From: Lachnospiraceae bacterium
Lineage (GTDB): Bacteria > Bacillota > Clostridia > Lachnospirales > Lachnospiraceae
Assembly (NCBI GenBank): GCA_028692395.1
Contig: JAQUXP010000016.1
Location: forward strand, 5,600 to 69,599
DNA: 64,000 nt
Direction of reading: 5' to 3'
Positions 4,928 through 59,146 of this stretch are shown piece by piece (the stretch's first letter is position 1; the number at the start of each line of letters is the position of its first letter). The notes below the pieces were generated by a model. That model was not told the origin of the DNA and did not search any database. It worked only from the letters and a program-made list of their open reading frames with translations. The position numbers and the translations under genes are program-made.

Positions 4928-6127
4928 ATGAGCACAATAGTAACATTAAAAAAAGGTGAAGGAAGAACAATAAAAGCGGGAGGAATGTGGATATTTGACA
5001 ACGAAATCGAAACTGTTGTGGGTAACTTTGAAAATGGCGACATTGTAATGATACATGATTTTGATGGTTATCCCATGGGAAAAGGTTTTATCAATGAGCA
5101 CTCCAAGATCCGTGTCAGAATGCTGACCAGGCAGGCTGACAGGGAGATTGATGCAGCATTTATCCGGGAGCGTGTGAAGGATGCCTGGGAGTACCGGAAA
5201 AAGGTGGTAGATACCTCCAGCTGCCGTCTGATCTTCGGCGAGGCGGATTTTCTTCCGGGACTGGTTGTGGATAAGTTTTCCGATGTACTGGTTGTGCAGT
5301 CACTGGCCCTTGGAATTGACCGGTTAAAAGAAGAGATCCTTCAGGATCTGAAGGAGATTCTCGCAGAGGATGGCATCTGTATCCGGGGAGTCTATGAGAG
5401 AAGCGATGCCAAGGTTCGCAGTCAGGAAGGGATGGAGCGCATAAAAGGCTTTATCGGACCGGAATTTGATACGAATGTGGAGATTGTGGAAAATGGTGTG
5501 AAGTACATCGTGGATGTAAAGGAGGGACAGAAAACCGGATTTTTCCTGGATCAGAAGTATAACCGGCAGTCCATCCAGAAGCTTTGCAGAGGGGCAAAAG
5601 TTCTGGACTGCTTTACACATACCGGCTCTTTTGCTCTGAATGCAGGCATCGCAGGAGCCGCAGAGGTTACCGGTGTGGACGCCTCACAGCTGGCCGTGGA
5701 TCAGGCCACGGAAAATGCTGCTTTAAATGGTCTTTCCGATACCGTGAAGTTTCAGTGCTGTGATGTGTTTGACCTTCTCCCAAGGCTGGAAGAACAGGGG
5801 GAAAAGTATGATCTGGTGATCCTGGATCCCCCTGCATTTACAAAATCCAGAAATTCCGTGAAGAATGCCACCAAAGGATACCGGGAGATTAATCTGAGGG
5901 GAATGAAGCTGGTGAAGGATGGTGGTTATCTGGCCACCTGTTCCTGTTCACACTTCATGTCCTATGAGCTGTTCACCAAGACGATTAATCAGGCGGCACA
6001 TCATGTACACAAACGTCTGCGCCAGGTGGAATTCAGAACCCAGGCACCGGATCACCCGATTCTGTGGGCGGCAGATGAGTCTTATTATCTGAAGTTTTAT
6101 ATCTTTCAGGTAGTGGATGAAAAATGA
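4928..6127 (+). CDS. class I SAM-dependent rRNA methyltransferase (RlmI/COG1092-like, PUA-like N-terminus)
   Basis: The motifs GFFLDQKYNR, VLDCFTHTGSFAL and DLVILDPPAF are present, and the 399-aa length is typical. Confidence 0.8.
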   Translation: MSTIVTLKKGEGRTIKAGGMWIFDNEIETVVGNFENGDIVMIHDFDGYPMGKGFINEHSKIRVRMLTRQADREIDAAFIRERVKDAWEYRKKVVDTSSCRLIFGEADFLPGLVVDKFSDVLVVQSLALGIDRLKEEILQDLKEILAEDGICIRGVYERSDAKVRSQEGMERIKGFIGPEFDTNVEIVENGVKYIVDVKEGQKTGFFLDQKYNRQSIQKLCRGAKVLDCFTHTGSFALNAGIAGAAEVTGVDASQLAVDQATENAALNGLSDTVKFQCCDVFDLLPRLEEQGEKYDLVILDPPAFTKSRNSVKNATKGYREINLRGMKLVKDGGYLATCSCSHFMSYELFTKTINQAAHHVHKRLRQVEFRTQAPDHPILWAADESYYLKFYIFQVVDEK

Positions 6128-7347: not shown

Positions 7348-8196
7348 ATGAGAAACACGCTATATTTGGAATGCTACACGGGAATCAGCGGCGATATGAC
7401 GGTTGCTGCGCTTCTTGATCTGGGTGCAGATCAGGCTTTGATGGAACAGGCGATAAAAAGCCTGCCATTACAGGGATTTGAAATCGCAGTCACACGGGTG
7501 AAAAAATCAGGAATTGATGCCTGCGATTTCGATGTGATCCTGGATCGGCAGCATGAAAACCATGATCACGACATGGAATATCTCCATGGACACAGCCATG
7601 ACCATACCCATGACCATGGTCATACCCATACCCATGATGAGGGCTGTGATCACAAACATCATTCCCATGTACAGCATGAGCATCGGGGACTAAAGGAAAT
7701 CAAAGAGATTATTCGGCAGGCAAAACTGACACCGGGGGCATGTGCCCTTGCCTGTAAAATCTTTGATATTCTTGCCCGGTCAGAGGCGAAAGCCCACTGT
7801 GTTCCCATAGATCAGGTGCATTTCCATGAGGTAGGTGCAGTGGATTCTATCGTGGATATTGTGGCAGCAGCAGTGTGCTTTGATAATCTTGGAATCTCGG
7901 AGGTAATTGTCCCAGGACTCTATGAGGGAAAGGGAACGGTTCGCTGTCAGCACGGCGTTCTGCCGATTCCGGTTCCGGCAGTTTCCAACATTTTGCAGGA
8001 GCATCATCTTCCGGTACACTTTATGGATACCCCGGGAGAGTTTATCACTCCGACAGGAGCCGCTATCGCAGCCGCAATACAGACTACAGACCACCTTCCG
8101 AAGCAATTTACCATAGAAAAGATTGGAATTGGCGCAGGAAAGAGAACCTATGACTGCCCCAGCATGCTCAGAGCAATGCTGATCAGCGAAGTGTGA
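7348..8196 (+). CDS. larC: LarC-family (DUF111) nickel-insertion protein, N-terminal (LarC1-like) portion only
   Basis: The protein has LYLECYTGISGDM, a His-rich nickel-binding tract, and HFHEVGAVDSIVDIV. It ends at LRAMLISEV*, where full-length LarC proteins continue into a C-terminal domain of about 120-140 aa. Confidence 0.8.
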   Translation: MRNTLYLECYTGISGDMTVAALLDLGADQALMEQAIKSLPLQGFEIAVTRVKKSGIDACDFDVILDRQHENHDHDMEYLHGHSHDHTHDHGHTHTHDEGCDHKHHSHVQHEHRGLKEIKEIIRQAKLTPGACALACKIFDILARSEAKAHCVPIDQVHFHEVGAVDSIVDIVAAAVCFDNLGISEVIVPGLYEGKGTVRCQHGVLPIPVPAVSNILQEHHLPVHFMDTPGEFITPTGAAIAAAIQTTDHLPKQFTIEKIGIGAGKRTYDCPSMLRAMLISEV

Positions 8197-8235
8197 AAAT
8201 CAGAGCAATTTAGAGATTATTGAAAAACGGACGCA

Positions 8236-8486
8236 GAAAAAGGCTGTCGCACGATGCCGTCCCAGGACAGGAGACTGCTGCCAGACACTGTTTCGGAATC
8301 CAAGAGTATACAAAAAAGAATAGATTTTGCTAAACACGTAAGTATGCAGCACAAACTCGTTTCACTCAAACAGTGTGCTGCATACTTACAACGCAAATTC
8401 TATTCTTTTTGTATACTTAGGATTCCTGCAAATGTGTCTGGCCGCAGTCTCCTGTCCTGGGACGGCATCGTGCGACAGCCTTTTTC
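8236..8486 (+). repeat. long-hairpin repeat family, copy 1 (complete, forward orientation, subfamily A)
   Basis: This 251-bp imperfect palindrome is centred near 8361. Its arms 8236-8288 and 8434-8486 are complementary with one mismatch. It has the conserved junction motifs and apical loop, flanked by an A run and a T run. Confidence 0.9.
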
Positions 8487-8525
8487 GCTGAAATATTTAA
8501 AAATTCCGTGGTGTCTGGGACAAGG

Positions 8526-16069: not shown

Positions 16070-16086
16070 GTGATGGAAAAACGGAC

Positions 16087-16335
16087 GGGAAGCGCTCGCT
16101 CGCCAAAATGGAGCCCCCCGGGGCGGTTGGCAGAGGACACGGTTTCGGAATCCAAGAGCATCCACAGTGGATTTGATTTTGCGATAGGCGTAAGCGGTCA
16201 GCACAAACTCGCTTCGCTCAGACAGTGTGCTGTCTGCTTACATCGCAAATTCTATTCCACTGGGATGCTTAGGATTCCTGCAAATGTGTCTTCTGCCAAC
16301 CGCCCCGGGGCTCTATTTGGCGAGCGAGCGCTTCC
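16087..16335 (+). repeat. long-hairpin repeat family, copy 2 (complete, forward orientation, distinct outer arms)
   Basis: In this 249-bp imperfect palindrome, GGGAAGCGCTCGCTCGCC pairs with GGCGAGCGAGCGCTTCCC. The junction motifs and apical loop are the same as in the other copies. Confidence 0.9.
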
Positions 16336-16349
16336 CTGGGGTTGGGGAC

Positions 16350-16535
16350 GGTTGGGGGCTGCTCCCTGGCGGGAGGACGCCACCCGCTATATAGGGGAGT
16401 TTGTGGTAGGCGGTTGGGGGGTGCTCCCTGGGGGAGGACGCCTGCTCGGTATATAAGGGAGTTTGTGGTGGGCGCTTGGGGGGTGCTTCCTGGGGGGAGG
16501 ACGCTTGCTCGGTATATAAGGGGGTTAGTGGCAGG
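16350..16535. repeat. tandem repeat, three units of about 62 bp (16350-16411, 16412-16473, 16474-about 16535)
   Basis: Units 1 and 2 are near-identical. Unit 3 contains the stop codon and last codons of the minus-strand CDS 16525..17238. The plus strand is G-rich and the minus strand C-rich. Confidence 0.85.
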
Positions 16536-19037: not shown

Positions 19038-19053
19038 AAGAGTGGGGCATATC

Positions 19054-19264
19054 AGTGACCGGAAATCCCTTATGAGGGCGGAACACATTTGCAGAAGTCC
19101 TAAGTATACCAAAACAACCGATTTTGCGTTATAAAAAATCAGCATACTGTCTGAGCACAGCGAGTTTATGTTGATTTTTTATGCTTTTAGCAAAATCGGT
19201 TGTTTTGTGTATACTCTTGGACTTCGAAACCGTGTTCCGCCCTCATAAGGGATTTCCGGTCACT
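19054..19264 (-). repeat. long-hairpin repeat family, copy 3 (complete, reverse orientation, subfamily B)
   Basis: In this 211-bp imperfect palindrome, AGTGACCGGAAATCCCTTATGAGGGCGGAACAC pairs with its complement at 19232-19264. The core motifs are present as reverse complements. Confidence 0.9.
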
Positions 19265-19276
19265 CAGGTGCGACTA

Positions 19277-21174: not shown

Positions 21175-21396
21175 TTAGATAAAAATTTCGCAGTCAGGTT
21201 CTACCTTGCGGCAGGCTTTTAATACGGCACTCATAACACCAGACTCATCAGCACTTTCCTCAAAATCAATCTTCATTTTCTGAGTCATAAAGCTAACAGT
21301 TGCATCAGCAATACCGGTAACTTTTTTAGCAGCATCTTCCATTTTCTGTGCACATGCAGCGCAGTCTACTTCGATTTTATAAGTTTTTTTCATCAT
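21175..21396 (-). CDS. stand-alone heavy-metal-associated (HMA) domain protein
   Basis: The 73-aa protein has the CxxC motif DCAACAQKMEDAAKKV. It resembles the N-terminal domain normally fused to CadA-type ATPases. Confidence 0.75.
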   Translation of the reverse strand: MMKKTYKIEVDCAACAQKMEDAAKKVTGIADATVSFMTQKMKIDFEESADESGVMSAVLKACRKVEPDCEIFI

Positions 21397-21476
21397 TTTT
21401 CCTGGTTCATCGCAGAGCAGATGAAATGATCCGGATGAACATTCCCTTTCTTTGTTGTTGTGTTATATTCTGTTTT

Positions 21477-21833
21477 TTATTCCTCTACATGTTCCATCCC
21501 CATGTTGATGATATTTCTTACATGATCATCATCCAGAGAATAGAAGATGATTTTTCCATCCCGTCGAAAACGTACCAGCTTGGAATTTTTCAGGATACGA
21601 AGCTGGTGACTGACGGAAGACTGGCTCAGGTTCAGGATCTGTGCGATATCACCGACACAGAGTTCCCCTTCCGAAAGCGCATACAGAATCTTAATTCTGG
21701 TGGAATCGCCAAATACCTTAAAGAGCTCTGCAAGATCATAGAGCACTTCATCATCCGGCTGACATTCCAGTACCTTCTGGACAACTTCGTCGTGCGCCGC
21801 CAGCATATCGGTGGTTTTATCTGCCATAGTCAT
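21477..21833 (-). CDS. ArsR/SmtB family metalloregulator
   Basis: The motifs LFKVFGDSTRIKILYAL, ELCVGDIAQILNLSQSSVSHQLRILK and a DDDH alpha-5-type site are present. Confidence 0.85.
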   Translation of the reverse strand: MTMADKTTDMLAAHDEVVQKVLECQPDDEVLYDLAELFKVFGDSTRIKILYALSEGELCVGDIAQILNLSQSSVSHQLRILKNSKLVRFRRDGKIIFYSLDDDHVRNIINMGMEHVEE

Positions 21834-21873
21834 AGTTCCTTTCTGTTCATTCTATTTAAAACATATGAGCACT

Positions 21874-21915
21874 TGTTCATATGAACATAATACTATGAAC
21901 ATCCACGAATGTCAA
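21874..21915 (-). promoter_or_regulatory. candidate promoter and operator of the metal operon
   Basis: On the minus strand, TTGACA (21915-21910) is followed by a 17-nt spacer and TATTAT (21892-21887). A perfect 14-bp palindrome TGTTCATATGAACA (21874-21887) follows immediately. Extra TGTTCAT/ATGAACA half-sites lie nearby. Confidence 0.55.
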
Positions 21916-27177: not shown

Positions 27178-27201
27178 ATGCACGAACCTATTATTGAATA
27201 G

Positions 27202-27374
27202 TTATCACAAACCAACCGATTTTGCTAAAATCATAAGAAATCAACATAAACTCTCTGTGCTCAGACAGTATGCTGATTTCTTATAACGCAAAACCGGTTG
27301 TTTTGGTATACTTAGGACTTCTGCAAAGGTGTTCCGCCCGCATAAGGGATTCCCCACCACCAAAGTGGGACAGC
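27202..27374 (+). repeat. long-hairpin repeat family, copy 4 (5-prime-truncated, forward orientation, subfamily B)
   Basis: The inner and middle stems, the apical loop and the complete right arm are present. The left junction motif and left outer arm are missing. Confidence 0.85.
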
Positions 27375-27475
27375 TTTATTTTCAATTGTTATTTCTGCGC
27401 TTTATCCATTGTAAAATCATAAATAGTTTGTTACTATTTAACAAGACGGAACCAAACAGCCATAAGGGAGGGTTT

Positions 27476-32629: not shown

Positions 32630-32912
32630 AGGAGGGCTGTCCCACTTCGGAGGCTGTCCCGCAATGCTGCTCCCGGATGGGAGACTGCTGCCAGACACTG
32701 TTTCGGAGTCCAAGAGCATATAAAAAAGAATAGATTTTGCTAAAAACGTAAGTATACAGCACAAACTCGTTTCACTCAAACAGTGTGCTGCATACTTACA
32801 ACGCAAATTCTATTCTTTTTCTATGCTTAGGACTCCTGCAAATGTGTCTGGCAGCAGTCTCCCATCCGGGAGCGGCATCGTGGGACAGCCGCCGAAGTGG
32901 GACAGCCCTCCT
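32630..32912 (+). repeat. long-hairpin repeat family, copy 5 (complete and the longest copy, forward orientation, subfamily A)
   Basis: This 283-bp imperfect palindrome is centred near 32771. It fills the whole gap between convergent genes, starting 13 nt after one stop and ending 3 nt before the other. The right arm runs into TTTTTT. Confidence 0.9.
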
Positions 32913-32915
32913 TTT

Positions 32916-33758
32916 TTATTCGTTATTGCGGTATGCAGCGGGGGTCATTCCTACATTTTTCTTAAAGGAAGTGCAAAATACGCTTTCGTTGGAGAAGCCG
33001 CAGTTATAACAGATATTTTTTACGGAATCCCTGGTGGTTTTCAGCATATATTTGGCGGTGTTCAGACGAATATTGATGAGGTATTCGTGAGGGGTAAACC
33101 CGGTTTCTTCTTTGAAGATCCGGATAAAGTGATAGGGGCTCAGCATGGCCTGGCGGGCCAGGGTGTTGACGGAAAGCTCCTCTACAAAGTGCTCGTTGAT
33201 ATAGGATACGGTCTCTTCGATCAGACTGCTGTGATTCCCCGTATTGGTCTGACTGGGCGTGTAAAGAATCATATCTGTAAGAATATCGGTGAGGTATTTG
33301 GAAAGCAGAGGTTCCCGGATGGGCTGATTTTGGTCGAAGGTGTGATAGAGCTTTCGCAATTTGCCGATGATGGAACTGGAATCTGCCAGGGTGAAGATAG
33401 ATCCCAGATGGGAGCGGACAAGCTCATAGTATCTGCCTGCCATAGGCCCGTCAAAATGACACCACAGACTTTCCAGACTGGCGGTGGTGTAATACTCGTG
33501 GGGCTTATAGCAATCCAACAGAACAAACTGATTGGCCGTGGCAGTTTTTGTCATACCTTCATACTGCACGGTAAGTTCTCCGGACTGAATATACATCACA
33601 AGAAAGCTGTCATAAGAGCTCCGCTTCTGGTGATATCCCGGCTCATAGAAAAAATGTCCGACACAGACCGGGTAGAAGAAGCTCTCTTTGGCTGTGAGAC
33701 TGGGAGAGTAGACAAAGTAGTCTGAGGAGGGAGCAACATACTGTTCGCAGGATTTCAT
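32916..33758 (-). CDS. AraC family transcriptional regulator
   Basis: A cupin-like N-terminus is followed by a C-terminal double HTH (LARQAMLSPYHFIRIFKEETGFTPHEYL...GFSNESVFCTSFKKNVGMTPAAYR). Confidence 0.85.
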   Translation of the reverse strand: MKSCEQYVAPSSDYFVYSPSLTAKESFFYPVCVGHFFYEPGYHQKRSSYDSFLVMYIQSGELTVQYEGMTKTATANQFVLLDCYKPHEYYTTASLESLWCHFDGPMAGRYYELVRSHLGSIFTLADSSSIIGKLRKLYHTFDQNQPIREPLLSKYLTDILTDMILYTPSQTNTGNHSSLIEETVSYINEHFVEELSVNTLARQAMLSPYHFIRIFKEETGFTPHEYLINIRLNTAKYMLKTTRDSVKNICYNCGFSNESVFCTSFKKNVGMTPAAYRNNE

Positions 33759-33946
33759 AATAAGATCGACCTTTCCTATGCAAAATAATGGTATTTGTTT
33801 ATATTCTACTATGAGAATTGAAAGAGTACAATAGCAATTTTTCTAAATAAAGAAGCAAATATCCATAATGTAAATTCGGAAAAAGAGTGTAATATATAGG
33901 ATAATGATTTCGAAAATTCATATAAACATTCAGGAGGTCAAGAACT

Positions 33947-53626: not shown

Positions 53627-53656
53627 ACTATACCATAAAAGTAAAAGAAAATGCAA
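53627..53656 (-). promoter_or_regulatory. candidate promoter of the LacI-family gene
   Basis: On the minus strand, TTGCAT (53656-53651) is followed by an 18-nt spacer and TATAGT (53632-53627). It overlaps a GTTTACT motif. Confidence 0.4.
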
Positions 53657-53666
53657 TAAGAAAAAA

Positions 53667-53909
53667 GGGAGTGCCGCACCTGGGGCCTGCAAGGTCCTGC
53701 TCAGCGTCTGCTCACATTTGCAGAAGTCCTAAGAATCCCGGAAGCATCCATTTTGTGTTGTAAGCATCCAGCATACTGTCTGAGCACAGCGAGTTTATGC
53801 TGGATGCTTACGTCTTTAGCAAAATTGATGGTTTCGTGGATTCTCTTGGGCTTCGAAACCGTGAGCAGACGCCAAGCAGGACCTTGCAGGCCCCAGGTGC
53901 GGCACTTCC
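53667..53909 (-). repeat. long-hairpin repeat family, copy 6 (complete, reverse orientation, distinct outer arms)
   Basis: In this 243-bp imperfect palindrome, GGGAGTGCCGCACCTGGGGCCTGCAAGGTCCTGC pairs with its complement at 53876-53909. It is flanked by an A run and a T run, and the core motifs are present as reverse complements. Confidence 0.9.
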
Positions 53910-53916
53910 TTTTTCT

Positions 53917-55695
53917 TTATAAAGCTTTCGTGATGGTGGTCATTCCGCCTACAGGGACAGGGAAGCTGTGAATTCCCGGTGTGATGGTGATACAGCTGTG
54001 TTCTAAAAGAGTTCCGGTGCACTGCCAGGTGCGCAGTTGTACTTTTGTTTCCCTGGAACAGGAGAGGTACAGGGAGGAACCGGAAGAGCCATTTAGGAAG
54101 ATACAGGTTTCCTTCTCTGACAGCGGAAGGACCAGGTTCCTGTCATAATAGGCTGTGATGCAGATCTTCTCATCCTGTGACTGAATGACCGGATAGGAGG
54201 AGAGCGGGGAATAAGCGGTAAATTCTCCGGACTGCAGTGTATCTTTATACTGAATAGAAAAGTCCAGATAATGCTGCAAAACCTGCTGCTGTGCAGGCAG
54301 AAGATCGGCAAGCCTTACGGAAATCTGCAGGGTTGCAAAGATACAGTTGATCAATTGAACTGCAACATTTTCCGGCGTTTCCTCCGGATGCCACATCAGC
54401 ATGTCCGAGTGAACGGCGGAATTGCCGCTGAGCAGACGCAGATCGGTAATTCCGACACGGTTTGTAACCGGAGAAAGGGGACAGTCACCTACACGGAAGA
54501 TATTTCCGAAGCGGCGCATCTGGGGTCCGATATAGTTTTGACGGAATTCGATCATCAGATCCTTGCGGATTCGGTGCAGGTGATGAGAAATATCCAGCAT
54601 AAGATGATACACTGCTTCCTGGATCTCAGCATAATCCATCTTGTCATTCTGCGGCGGCGTATCGGGATAATTGCGGAAGGAATCGATAAAATCCAGCTTA
54701 AATCCATCCAGATCCCAGTCTGTGGCACTTTTCTCGTAGACGGATATCAGATAGCTTCGCACCTGTGGATAGCGGGGATCCAGAATTCCTGCATTTAAAA
54801 CATCATCATAATGAAGAAGCATATTCTGAAAATCAGACCAGATGCCGGAATACTTTCCAACGAAGGGAACACTGTACCAGACGATACATCTTATCCCCAG
54901 AGAATGAAGCTCATCTATATATCCTCTAAAATCCGGAAATTTACTTTTTTCTGCATTCCAGTCCCCACAGTAGCCATATCCCCGATTGTTATCCGCAGTC
55001 TGCCAGCCATCATCAAGAAGGATTGTCTTCATCCCCAGGGAAGAAGCGATCACGCCCTCTTTCAGCAGTGACTTTTCGGCTACCTCCTGATGGTACGAGT
55101 ACCAGGTAGAGTACATGGGAAGACGGGCATCCTCAGGTGAGGGCAAAGGACGTTCCGGCAGAAGGGAATCCCACCAGGAAGAAACACTTTGGATGGCCTT
55201 GCAAAATGAAAACTGCTGCCGGTCGATACGGACAGACAGAGAATAACGGTTTACAGATTCACAGAGGTAGATCAGTGCGTCCAGATAGATCTCGCCGGTC
55301 TCCTCGTGAACCCCTGCAAGCAAAGAGATATCCCGGTTTAACTCACTGAGCGCAAAGGTGAGAACATTATTACTGCCGGAGTCGAAAAAGCAGACAATGG
55401 GACCGGAATGACTGATATTGATCTGCTTTGCGTTGCTCCAGTCACCTGTAAGATTTTTCTCAAAGCCGGCGTCCGGTCTCCATATACCTGCAATCCCCAG
55501 ATCCTTAAAAGCATAATGAATATGGATAAAAGGCCGGTCCTCGAAGGGAAGCTGGGCAATTGTGTGCAGATTGGCATGGACTGTTTCGTCAGAGAAGAGG
55601 GTATAGTGATATATTGGAATATCAGCGGTTTCCTGGTAATTAGTACTTTCTAATTTTAGTTTATTCAGTTTTACGATAAGTTCAGTGTTTTCCAT
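53917..55695 (-). CDS. glycoside hydrolase family 36-like protein (alpha-galactosidase superfamily)
   Basis: ILLDDGWQ, GFKLDFID and CIVWYS are TIM-barrel motifs reminiscent of GH36/GH27. ATG 55695 follows GGAGG. The specificity is unknown. Confidence 0.6.
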   Translation of the reverse strand: MENTELIVKLNKLKLESTNYQETADIPIYHYTLFSDETVHANLHTIAQLPFEDRPFIHIHYAFKDLGIAGIWRPDAGFEKNLTGDWSNAKQINISHSGPIVCFFDSGSNNVLTFALSELNRDISLLAGVHEETGEIYLDALIYLCESVNRYSLSVRIDRQQFSFCKAIQSVSSWWDSLLPERPLPSPEDARLPMYSTWYSYHQEVAEKSLLKEGVIASSLGMKTILLDDGWQTADNNRGYGYCGDWNAEKSKFPDFRGYIDELHSLGIRCIVWYSVPFVGKYSGIWSDFQNMLLHYDDVLNAGILDPRYPQVRSYLISVYEKSATDWDLDGFKLDFIDSFRNYPDTPPQNDKMDYAEIQEAVYHLMLDISHHLHRIRKDLMIEFRQNYIGPQMRRFGNIFRVGDCPLSPVTNRVGITDLRLLSGNSAVHSDMLMWHPEETPENVAVQLINCIFATLQISVRLADLLPAQQQVLQHYLDFSIQYKDTLQSGEFTAYSPLSSYPVIQSQDEKICITAYYDRNLVLPLSEKETCIFLNGSSGSSLYLSCSRETKVQLRTWQCTGTLLEHSCITITPGIHSFPVPVGGMTTITKAL

Positions 55696-58997: not shown

Positions 58998-59006
58998 AAA
59001 AATTAG

Positions 59007-59146
59007 ATAAAAAAGAATAGAATTTGCTAAAAACGTAAGTATACAGCACAAACTCGTTTCACTCAGACAGTGTGCTGCATACTTACAACACAAATTCTAT
59101 TCTTTTTCGTATGCTTAGGACTCCTGCAAATGTGTCTGGCAGCAGT
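59007..59146 (+). repeat. long-hairpin repeat family, copy 7 (5-prime-truncated, forward orientation, subfamily A)
   Basis: The copy starts 9 nt after the permease stop. It has the inner stems, apical loop and right junction motif, but lacks the left junction and both outer arms. Confidence 0.85.

What the first reader, a model, noticed from the sequence alone, without database searches (positions are those of the whole stretch)
53667..53909. The hairpin elements are asymmetric and appear to be oriented with transcription of the upstream gene (3-prime UTR placement)
The two arms are not simple complements of each other, and the irregularities are conserved across copies:
- a 1 x 3 internal loop (C opposite TGC) inside the first junction;
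- a bulged A in AAGAG opposite CTTAG;
- a 7 x 3 internal loop (TAAANNC opposite AAC) in the second junction.

Two conserved G-T appositions would be G-U wobbles if the forward strand is the RNA, and A-C mismatches on the other strand. One apical A-C mismatch in copies 3 and 4 argues the other way, so the strand evidence is suggestive only.

Every copy starts or ends within 3-80 nt of a stop codon. Three copies sit between co-directional genes: copy 4 after the GPH transporter, copy 6 after the GH36-like gene on the minus strand, and copy 7 after the permease. All three lie in the forward orientation relative to the upstream gene. The four copies between convergent genes are uninformative, but each is compatible with one of its neighbours. 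Copies 1, 5 and 6 are flanked by A runs and/or T runs, as in uni- or bidirectional intrinsic terminators. Possible roles are giant terminator/insulator hairpins, RNase III or dsRNA-binding-protein targets that control 3-prime-end stability, sources of 3-prime-UTR-derived sRNA, or folded-ssDNA recombination sites in the manner of integron attC sites. All of these roles are inference.
Basis: partly seen in the sequence, partly recalled or inferred. Interest (0 to 1): 0.65.

Follow-up and report, generated by a model that had tools for sequence, protein, structure and literature searches.

The report
Dispersed giant-hairpin repeat at gene ends
The 250-base hairpin is one of roughly 50-100 copies of a lineage-restricted palindromic repeat that sits at the ends of transcription units in an uncultured Lachnospiraceae bacterium; its lopsided internal loops are real and conserved, but the claim that it always points the same way as the upstream gene is not established.

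Summary
Window 53656-53920 (minus strand is "forward") is a 265-nt imperfect hairpin, z about -19. It is one of exactly 7 copies in the window: 5 full-length and 2 lacking the 5' arm. Logan contig depth indicates about 50-100 copies per genome.

The stems vary between copies with strong compensation: 19 of 54 core pairs change on both sides. The asymmetric junctions, by contrast, are invariant. These are the N bulge, C opposite TGC, AA opposite A, two G.T appositions, a bulged A, and a second junction with 4 extra bases on the 5' arm. The same features occur in the only relatives found, two copies in the Lachnospiraceae MAG STD2_98.

All 7 copies abut stop codons. They occupy 4 of 9 convergent, 3 of 32 co-directional and 0 of 9 divergent junctions.

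The orientation claim is weak. It holds for 3 of 3 informative copies in the window. One relative (L001) lies cleanly antisense between two co-directional genes, giving 4 of 5 (p=0.19). Sporadic arm mismatches favour the reverse strand, and the reverse strand folds better in 6 of 7 copies. No RNA data exist.

Best reading: a new family of ERIC/REPIN/MITE-like palindromic repeats with a terminator-like A-run/T-run frame. Selection acts on a folded single strand. The mobilising or recognising partner is unknown.

The parts
53656..53920 (-). Copy c6, the finding: a full-length 265-nt hairpin element. Its forward strand is the minus strand.
53864..53920 (-). c6 outer 5' arm. It includes the A-run (read as T5 at 53910-53914 on the plus strand) and overlaps the GH36-like gene's stop codon at 53917-53919.
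53843..53863 (-). c6 junction 1, 5' half: CACGGTTTCGAAGCCCAAGAG.
   Evidence: The half-site is present in all 5 full copies, and in L001 and L002.
53837..53837 (-). Bulged A at core column 27, invariant in all copies.
53812..53818 (-). c6 junction 2, 5' side: the 7-nt loop TAAAGAC.
53775..53796 (-). Conserved 22-nt apical loop AAACTCGCTGTGCTCAGACAGT, flanked by the 15-bp apical stem at 53760-53774 and 53797-53811.
53757..53759 (-). c6 junction 2, 3' side: the 3-nt loop AAC.
53713..53733 (-). c6 junction 1, 3' half: CTTAGGACTTCTGCAAATGTG.
   Evidence: All 7 window copies match the pattern with no mismatches.
53656..53712 (-). c6 outer 3' arm, ending in T6 (read as A6 at 53661-53666 on the plus strand). 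This gives an intrinsic-terminator-like end for the GH36-like transcript.
8236..8486 (+). Copy c1, 251 nt, with an A5 and T5 frame. It lies between convergent larC-like and L25 genes.
   Evidence: The multi-copy depth zone 8241-8487 matches the hairpin limits.
16089..16336 (+). Copy c2, a divergent copy without a T-run. It lies between convergent GH43 and DUF134/NifB-like genes.
   Evidence: Independent Logan contigs assemble through it.
19047..19271 (-). Copy c3, lying 5 nt after the stop codon of the P-type ATPase gene (-). That gene is convergent with an SNF symporter gene.
27197..27375 (+). Copy c4. The 5' arm and the left half of junction 1 are missing. The 3' arm is full length and carries the terminal motif GTGGGACAGCT. 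It follows the MFS_2 transporter gene.
32630..32912 (+). Copy c5, 283 nt, with a doubled GGCTGTCCCAC terminal motif and a T6 run. It lies between convergent ABC ATPase and AraC genes.
58999..59146 (+). Copy c7. Both outer arms and the left half of junction 1 are missing. It starts 2 nt after the permease gene's stop codon.

Best explanation
c6 is one copy of a non-coding, lineage-restricted family of 210-285-nt imperfect palindromes. The family has dispersed to many unrelated loci, with roughly 50-100 copies per genome. It survives almost only at the 3' ends of transcription units. It belongs to the same kind as ERIC, REPIN, Correia and other stem-loop MITE-like repeats.

The unit is a single long hairpin built as follows:
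- an outer stem of about 45-66 bp, often framed by an A-run and a T-run;
- the invariant asymmetric junction 1;
- a helix of about 24 bp carrying one bulged A;
- junction 2, where the 5' arm has 4 extra bases;
- a 13-15-bp apical stem with a loop that carries AACTCG...GCTCAGACA. This apical part appears dispensable, since shorter variants lacking it exist.

Shown:
- The stems evolve by compensatory change while the junctions stay fixed. A folded single strand is therefore under selection, and the junctions are read sequence-specifically.

Inferred:
- The junctions are the recognition site of a protein encoded elsewhere in the genome, either one that once mobilised the element or one that binds it.
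- When the upstream gene is transcribed into the element, the RNA forms a hairpin of about 120 bp.
- In copies with a T-run (c1, c5, c6, and partly c4) this hairpin acts as an intrinsic terminator and a barrier to 3' exonucleases. It works in both directions where both an A-run and a T-run are present.
- The link between orientation and transcription is not demonstrated.
For: **Dispersed repeat.**
- There are 7 copies in 64 kb, with unrelated flanks and clear subfamilies. c1 and c5 are 90% identical over 240 nt. c5 and c7 are 95% identical over a 43-nt stretch. c3 and c4 are 92% identical over 158 nt.
- The summed contig depth over the core is 50-100 times single-copy depth in four independent metagenomes. 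The multi-copy zone coincides with the hairpin limits.
- Truncated copies (c4, c7) and internally deleted copies exist. The deletions appear as joints skipping 48, 75 and 94 nt.

**Lineage restriction.**
- The right half of junction 1 matches exactly in only one other genome among 185,579 species representatives.
- There is no true match in 241 million metagenome records, in IMG/VR, or in plasmids and phages.
- No Rfam family matches.

**Structure under selection.**
- 94.2% of pair cells are standard pairs. 19 of 54 pairs (39 cells) change on both sides. None of 500 shuffles reaches these values, and slid controls give 32-51%.
- RNAalifold finds the same helices independently.
- The junction geometry, the bulged A and the 24-bp spacing are kept in L002, although its interior sequence differs.

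**Placement.**
- Copies occupy 4 of 9 convergent, 3 of 32 co-directional and 0 of 9 divergent junctions.

**Terminator-like frame.**
- c1, c5 and c6 have terminal A-runs and/or T-runs.
- Flanks of other copies seen as loose ends are also A-rich at the 5' end and T-rich at the 3' end.

**Ordinary chromosomal context.**
- About 50 window genes were checked. None is a transposase, integrase or reverse transcriptase.
Against: - No target-site duplication was found, and no cognate transposase was found (Pfam calls).
- No empty site was seen. c1-c6 are all present in a strain about 1.4% diverged, so there is no sign of recent mobility.
- c2, c3, c7, L001 and L002 lack a T-run at the hairpin base, so termination cannot be the general role.
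- Transcription of any copy is unverified, because no RNA run holds this organism.
- Invariant junctions across two lineages could instead reflect a host-selected function rather than a requirement for mobilisation.
Confidence: 0.55

Rival explanations
1. Dedicated, oriented 3'-UTR RNA module. The forward-strand RNA is the functional form. Its two G.U pairs and asymmetric loops are recognised by an RNA-binding protein or RNase III. This sets the 3'-end stability of the upstream mRNA or releases a 3'-UTR-derived sRNA.
For: - All 3 informative window copies, plus L002, are co-oriented with the upstream gene.
- The two G.T appositions are invariant and would be mismatches on the other strand.
- The hairpin base lies 0-20 nt from the co-oriented stop codon in c2, c3, c4, c5, c6 and c7.
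- Stems covary while loops stay fixed, as in functional RNAs.
Against: - L001 lies antisense between two co-directional genes.
- The overall orientation count is 4 of 5, p=0.19.
- Sporadic mismatches are more often A.C than G.T on the forward strand: 9 against 3 cells in the core, and 18 against 11 over whole arms.
- The reverse strand has the lower MFE in 6 of 7 copies.
- The family is confined to two lineages, with subfamily bursts and truncated copies. This pattern is typical of selfish dispersal.
- No RNA evidence is available.
Confidence: 0.2
2. Folded-ssDNA site. One DNA strand folds during replication or transfer. The asymmetric junctions mark the strand for a structure-specific enzyme, such as a Y1/HUH transposase as in REP/REPIN-RAYT and IS200/IS605 systems, or a tyrosine recombinase as at attC sites. 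That enzyme copies or recombines the element.
For: - A conserved structure with variable stem sequence and invariant extrahelical or asymmetric bases is the signature of attC sites and of IS200/IS605 and REP hairpins (established knowledge).
- The covariation and fixed bulges are shown.
- G.T appositions are also tolerated in ssDNA.
- Dispersal, copy number and lineage restriction fit a REPIN-like population.
Against: - No Y1/HUH, integrase or recombinase gene is in the window or in L001/L002.
- There is no GTAG motif and no attC R'/R'' box.
- At 211-283 nt the element is well above attC and REP sizes.
- The window lies on one replichore, with GC skew of +0.09 to +0.17 throughout. Copies nevertheless point both ways (5 plus, 2 minus), unlike strictly lagging-strand-targeted ssDNA elements.
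- The genes between copies form ordinary operons, not cassettes.
Confidence: 0.2
3. Assembly artefact or chance palindrome.
For: Metagenome assemblers can create palindromic chimeras, and Logan contigs break inside most copies.
Against: - c2 is assembled through identically in independent runs.
- The arms carry conserved asymmetries that chimeric fold-backs cannot produce.
- Seven copies and two relatives in another MAG share the architecture.
- z is about -19.
Confidence: 0.01

Closest known systems
ERIC / IRU (enterobacterial repetitive intergenic consensus, 127-bp imperfect palindromes)
   Same: Both are a single long imperfect hairpin found in intergenic regions next to genes and present in dozens to hundreds of copies. 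Both are stable at their loci between strains. Both have larger and smaller variants that differ by internal segments. ERIC is listed among stem-loop repeat families in PMC2267715. Its compensatory evolution and orientation-dependent effects on mRNA come from my own knowledge of the ERIC literature (Wilson & Sharp 2006; De Gregorio et al. 2005) and were not checked here.
   Different: This element is about twice as long (211-283 nt). It shows no sequence similarity to ERIC and occurs in Clostridia. Its conserved parts are internal asymmetric junctions rather than the ends. No TA target duplication was seen.
REPIN / REP-RAYT systems
   Same: Both are hairpin-forming inverted repeats with conserved bulges. 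Both are lineage-specific, present in tens to hundreds of copies, and enriched between convergent genes. In REPINs the structure is kept by compensatory change (established knowledge). The observed pattern matches.
   Different: There is no GTAG motif. The element is not a doublet of short REPs. No RAYT gene is in the sequence available. Its size is more than twice that of typical REPINs.
Stem-loop MITEs of Firmicutes and Neisseria (bcr1, RUP, BOX, Efa-1, Correia/NEMIS)
   Same: All are small, non-coding, dispersed intergenic repeats predicted to fold. They are often co-transcribed and act as terminators or RNase III targets. The families are catalogued in PMC2267715.
   Different: Those elements are 60-170 nt. 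Many have defined terminal inverted repeats, target-site duplications and a known cognate IS. Here no duplication and no partner were found, and the termini are the least conserved part of the element.
Integron attC sites
   Same: Both have a conserved fold with variable sequence, strand-marking asymmetric or extrahelical bases, and a position right after the stop codon of the upstream gene.
   Different: There are no R'/R'' boxes and no IntI gene. The size is 211-283 nt, against 57-141 nt for attC. The intervening genes form multi-gene operons on both strands and include housekeeping genes.
Bidirectional intrinsic terminators
   Same: c1 and c6 consist of an A-run, a GC-rich stem base and a T-run. 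They lie directly after stop codons and often between convergent genes.
   Different: The stem is about 120 bp with structured internal loops, rather than 5-15 bp. Five of the 9 copies examined lack the T-run.

Membership tests
Intergenic stem-loop repeat family (the general kind: ERIC, BOX, RUP, bcr1, Efa-1; PMC2267715) | Multiple dispersed copies with shared sequence at unrelated loci | tested here: met
   There are 7 copies in the window. Contig depth indicates about 50-100 copies per genome.
Intergenic stem-loop repeat family (the general kind) | Shared, conserved secondary structure | tested here: met
   94.2% of pair cells are standard pairs, and 19 of 54 pairs covary.
Intergenic stem-loop repeat family (the general kind) | Intergenic location and no coding capacity | tested here: met
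   All copies lie between Pfam-supported genes. The variable stems exclude a conserved ORF.
MITE | Terminal inverted repeats | tested here: met
   The arms are complementary over their whole length. A weak terminal motif, GGCTGTCSCAC/GTGSGACAGCC, occurs in c1, c4 and c5.
MITE | Target-site duplication flanking each copy | tested here: not met
   No direct repeat flanks any of the 7 full copies examined.
MITE | Cognate autonomous IS with the same ends | not testable with these tools
   None is present in the window, in L001/L002, or in plasmids and phages.
MITE | Insertion polymorphism (empty sites) between strains | tested here: not met
   c1-c6 are all present in strains about 1.4% diverged, and no joint skips an element.
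REP / REPIN-RAYT | Conserved GTAG next to the palindrome | tested here: not met
   Neither GTAG nor CTAC occurs anywhere in the 7 full copies.
REP / REPIN-RAYT | Single-copy RAYT (Y1 transposase) gene in the genome | not testable with these tools
   No Y1_Tnp gene is in the window or the loci (Pfam calls). The whole genome is unavailable.
Integron attC | R''(RYYYAAC) and R'(GTTRRRY) boxes at the ends | tested here: not met
   One search found none on either strand of the 5 full copies.
Integron attC | Adjacent intI gene and an array of single-gene cassettes | tested here: not met
   No integrase is present. The intervals between copies hold multi-gene operons on both strands, including L25 and a P-type ATPase.
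Intrinsic (rho-independent) terminator | GC-rich stem base directly followed by a T-run | tested here: inconclusive
   Met in c1, c5 and c6, and partly in c4. Absent in c2, c3, c7, L001 and L002.
Intrinsic (rho-independent) terminator | Transcript 3' ends map to the T-run | not testable with these tools
   No RNA run holds this organism.
Any Rfam RNA family | Covariance-model match at the gathering score | tested here: not met
   Searches returned only sub-threshold miRNA-hairpin look-alikes.

The most novel reading that the evidence does not exclude
The two invariant asymmetric junctions are held at a fixed spacing of about 24 bp on an otherwise freely covarying 120-bp helix. They could be the docking platform of a dedicated, still unidentified structure-specific protein acting on a folded single strand. 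On that reading this would be a Clostridial counterpart of REPIN-RAYT or attC-IntI biology, with a new recognition architecture. Alternatively it could be a strictly oriented 3'-UTR RNA module.
Probability: 0.2. Interest if true: 0.65.

Novelty: new member of a known kind. Interest (0 to 1): 0.35.

Why it matters
Families of palindromic intergenic repeats shape operon boundaries, mRNA stability and genome assembly. They have hardly been described in gut and environmental Clostridia.

This family is unusually long. Its conserved features are internal asymmetric junctions rather than its ends, which points to a specific partner protein worth finding.

In practice, these repeats break short-read assemblies of this organism at every copy. 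Copies that sit 0-15 nt from a stop codon may also affect expression of the upstream gene.

Tried and rejected
- **Rfam.** Searches at gathering and E-value thresholds found nothing real.
- **Exact-pattern scans.**
  - The genome-contig scan gave 2 true relatives and 2 chance hits.
  - The metagenome-contig scan gave 8 chance hits with no left junction.
  - The three viral-contig scans gave 0, 18 chance hits and 0.
- **BLAST.** Searches against plasmids and phages found no match.
- **RNA runs.** None is available, so transcription could not be tested.
- **More of this genome.** Attempts through the look-up of encoding contigs returned only short Logan contigs that end at the elements.
- **Organism identity.** The window protein's next homolog is 57% identical, so the organism has no close sequenced relative.
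- **Target-site duplication, GTAG motif and attC boxes.** All absent.
- **K-turn reading of junction 1.** Rejected by inspection: no tandem G.A pairs follow the 3-nt loop.
- **tRNA T-arm resemblance of GGTTTCGAAGTCC.** ARAGORN finds no tRNA, so this is treated as coincidence.
- **Apparent strain-specific loss of 32939-33800 next to c5.** This was an artefact. The region is covered in the same run when a longer stretch is laid.
- **The 12-mer GAAAAACGGACG 5' of c1 and c2 as part of the element.** Rejected: depth there is single-copy.
- **Literature searches.** No description of this family was found.

Full report
**What is at the coordinates.** Window 53656-53920 is a long imperfect inverted repeat. 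Its arms are 53656-53754 and 53822-53920, with a perfect 16-bp apical stem. Either strand folds into one hairpin, at -175.6 and -186.1 kcal/mol. These values lie 19-20 standard deviations below dinucleotide shuffles. I call the minus strand "forward", meaning the left junction CACNGTTTCGRARYCCAAGAG comes first. The stated coordinates 53667-53909 fall inside the element.

**Copies in the window.** Repeat and pattern searches find exactly seven copies and none by chance.
- Five are full length: c1 8236-8486 (+), c2 16089-16336 (+), c3 19047-19271 (-), c5 32630-32912 (+) and c6 53656-53920 (-).
- Two lack the 5' arm and the left half of junction 1: c4 about 27197-27375 (+) and c7 about 58999-59146 (+).
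- c4 still has a full 3' arm. Its terminal motif GTGGGACAGCT sits 34 nt beyond the junction, the same offset as in c1.

**Structure and asymmetry.** The 151-nt cores of the five full copies align without gaps.
- On my hand-drawn structure, 94.2% of 344 pair cells are standard pairs.
- 19 of 54 pairs (39 cells) changed on both sides.
- None of 500 shuffles reaches these values, and sliding the partner by 1-3 columns gives 32-51% pairing.
- RNAalifold finds the same helices on its own.
- The outer stems (45-66 bp) differ almost completely between subfamilies, yet each is self-complementary.

Against this variable background the irregularities are fixed:
- a bulged N after CAC;
- G.T at columns 5/149;
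- C opposite TGC;
- AA opposite A;
- G.T at columns 19/134;
- a bulged A at column 27;
- junction 2, which gives the 5' arm 4 extra bases. This is a 7x3 loop in six copies and a 4-nt bulge in c2.

**Relatives.** The right half of junction 1 was scanned against 185,579 species genomes. The only true matches are two copies in one Lachnospiraceae MAG, STD2_98 (L001 and L002). Both keep the following features, although their interior sequence is different:
- junction 1 exactly;
- the bulged A;
- the 24-bp spacing to a second junction, which is again 7x3 in L002 (TCAGACA opposite ATC);
- in L002, the loop motif AACTCGC...GCTCAGACA.

Other searches found nothing:
- The metagenome and viral scans gave only chance hits that lack the left junction.
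- Plasmids, phages and Rfam gave nothing.
- The window's GH36-like protein has no relative above 57% identity. The nearest named hits are Lachnospiraceae (Anaerocolumna, Blautia, Acetatifactor).

**Copy number and stability.** Only a handful of metagenomes (landfill, gut, aquatic, mixed culture) hold the locus or the element.
- In four of them, summed contig depth over the core is 50-100 times the single-copy depth. It rises and falls exactly at the hairpin limits, 8241-8487 for c1.
- Short-read contigs break inside c1, c3, c4, c5 and c6 in every run.
- A strain about 1.4% diverged (153 differences in 10.6 kb) has all six copies I could test, and no joint skips an element. There is thus no sign of recent movement.
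- c2 is assembled through in independent runs, which excludes an assembly artefact. Between strains it differs by one substitution in junction 2, plus a GG insertion that repairs a CC bulge.
- Joints that skip 48, 75 or 94 nt of the apical part show that shorter family members exist. L001 likewise has a short apical loop.

**Genomic context.** About 50 window genes have ordinary Pfam assignments:
- sugar ABC transporters;
- GH43, GH36 and GH120 glycoside hydrolases;
- L25, LarC, a P-type ATPase and regulators.

None is a transposase, integrase or reverse transcriptase. Every copy abuts a stop codon. By junction class, copies occupy 4 of 9 convergent, 3 of 32 co-directional and 0 of 9 divergent junctions. 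The Fisher test for convergent against the rest gives p=0.0145. The three co-directional sites (c4, c6, c7) precede a gene that likely has its own promoter. c6 lies between the GH36-like stop codon and the lacI-type gene, c7 lies before an AraC-type gene, and c4 precedes an alpha/beta hydrolase gene. The copies therefore mark the ends of transcription units.

**Orientation and strand.**
- In the window, the three informative copies are forward relative to the upstream gene (p=0.125).
- L002 agrees. A minus-strand ORF running off the locus end stops at 7720, then comes the element, then the feoAB promoter.
- L001 does not agree. The element is on the minus strand between DUF3786 (+, ending at 4966 inside the element's outer arm) and a signal-peptide protein gene (+, starting near 5243). 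The overlapping minus-strand ORF is clearly spurious.
- The total is 4 of 5, p=0.19.
- The wobble argument does not survive a full count. Apart from the two invariant G.T columns, the core has 3 forward G.T cells against 9 forward A.C cells.
- Over whole arms, a pairwise arm alignment gives 11 G.T against 18 A.C. Three of those 11 are the junction wobble.
- The reverse strand has the lower MFE in 6 of 7 full copies.
- GC skew is positive throughout, so the window lies on one replichore. Copies point both ways there (5 plus, 2 minus), which also argues against strict replication-strand targeting.
- No RNA run holds this organism.

**Interpretation.** The following features place the element among the dispersed stem-loop repeat families of bacteria (ERIC, REPIN, Correia, bcr1, RUP, Efa-1; PMC2267715):
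- dispersal to unrelated loci;
- subfamilies;
- truncated and internally deleted copies;
- high copy number;
- extreme lineage restriction;
- absence of coding capacity.

Two things stand out. The first is its size, a single hairpin of 211-283 nt. The second is that the most conserved parts are two internal asymmetric junctions at fixed spacing, while the termini are the least conserved. Covarying stems combined with fixed asymmetric junctions mean that a folded single strand is selected and that the junctions are read sequence-specifically, most likely by a protein. Whether that strand is RNA or DNA cannot be decided from sequence.

c1, c5 and c6 carry a terminal A-run and/or T-run, and the flanks of many other copies seen as loose ends look the same. 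Those copies resemble portable terminators, bidirectional where both runs are present. This fits their enrichment between convergent genes and makes orientation less critical. Five of the nine copies examined lack the T-run, so termination is at most a frequent by-function.

Membership tests that failed:
- target-site duplication, GTAG motif and attC boxes;
- any Rfam family.

**Verdict.** This is a new family of a known kind, of moderate interest. The decisive tests are a genome-wide orientation census, a search for the partner protein and transcript 3'-end mapping.

Noticed in passing
window 16349-16535: A 62-nt unit is repeated three times in tandem directly 3' of c2. It is single-copy in the genome and not unusually structured (z -0.4). 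It is hypervariable between strains, with about 12 substitutions and 5 indels in about 180 nt against a background of about 1.4%.
   Followed up: partly
window 8222-8233 and 16076-16087: The same 12-mer, GAAAAACGGACG, lies 2-3 nt 5' of the hairpin base of both c1 and c2. AAACGGAC also appears in the consensus of flanks of other copies. Depth there is single-copy, so it is not part of the general element. It could be a preferred target or a coincidence.
   Followed up: partly
L001 4948-4966: In the MAG relative, the last 6 codons and the stop codon of the DUF3786 gene lie inside the element's outer arm. The element therefore supplies the end of the gene. Similarly, the stop codon of the GH36-like gene (53917-53919) lies in the base of c6.
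   Followed up: partly
window 32630-32662 and 32880-32912: c5 carries the terminal motif GGCTGTCCCAC twice on each arm, separated by CTTCGG. Loose ends show that many other copies share GGGGCTGTCGCACTTCGGTGGCTGGGAGCT. The doubled end may therefore be the family norm and c1 a shorter form.
   Followed up: partly
window 8327-8376, 32727-32822, 32740-32816, 19126-19209, 27239-27277 (joints in Logan contigs): Other genomic copies lack 37-94 nt of the apical part. One has GTTG in its place and another has GATAGT. The apical stem and loop are therefore dispensable for persistence.
   Followed up: no
window 1-64000: GC skew is strongly positive in every 8-kb bin (+0.09 to +0.17), and about 80% of genes are on the plus strand. 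The whole window lies on the leading strand of one replichore.
   Followed up: yes
window 21348-21884: A 178-aa ORF between the P-type ATPase gene and the ROK regulator gene has no Pfam match.
   Followed up: no
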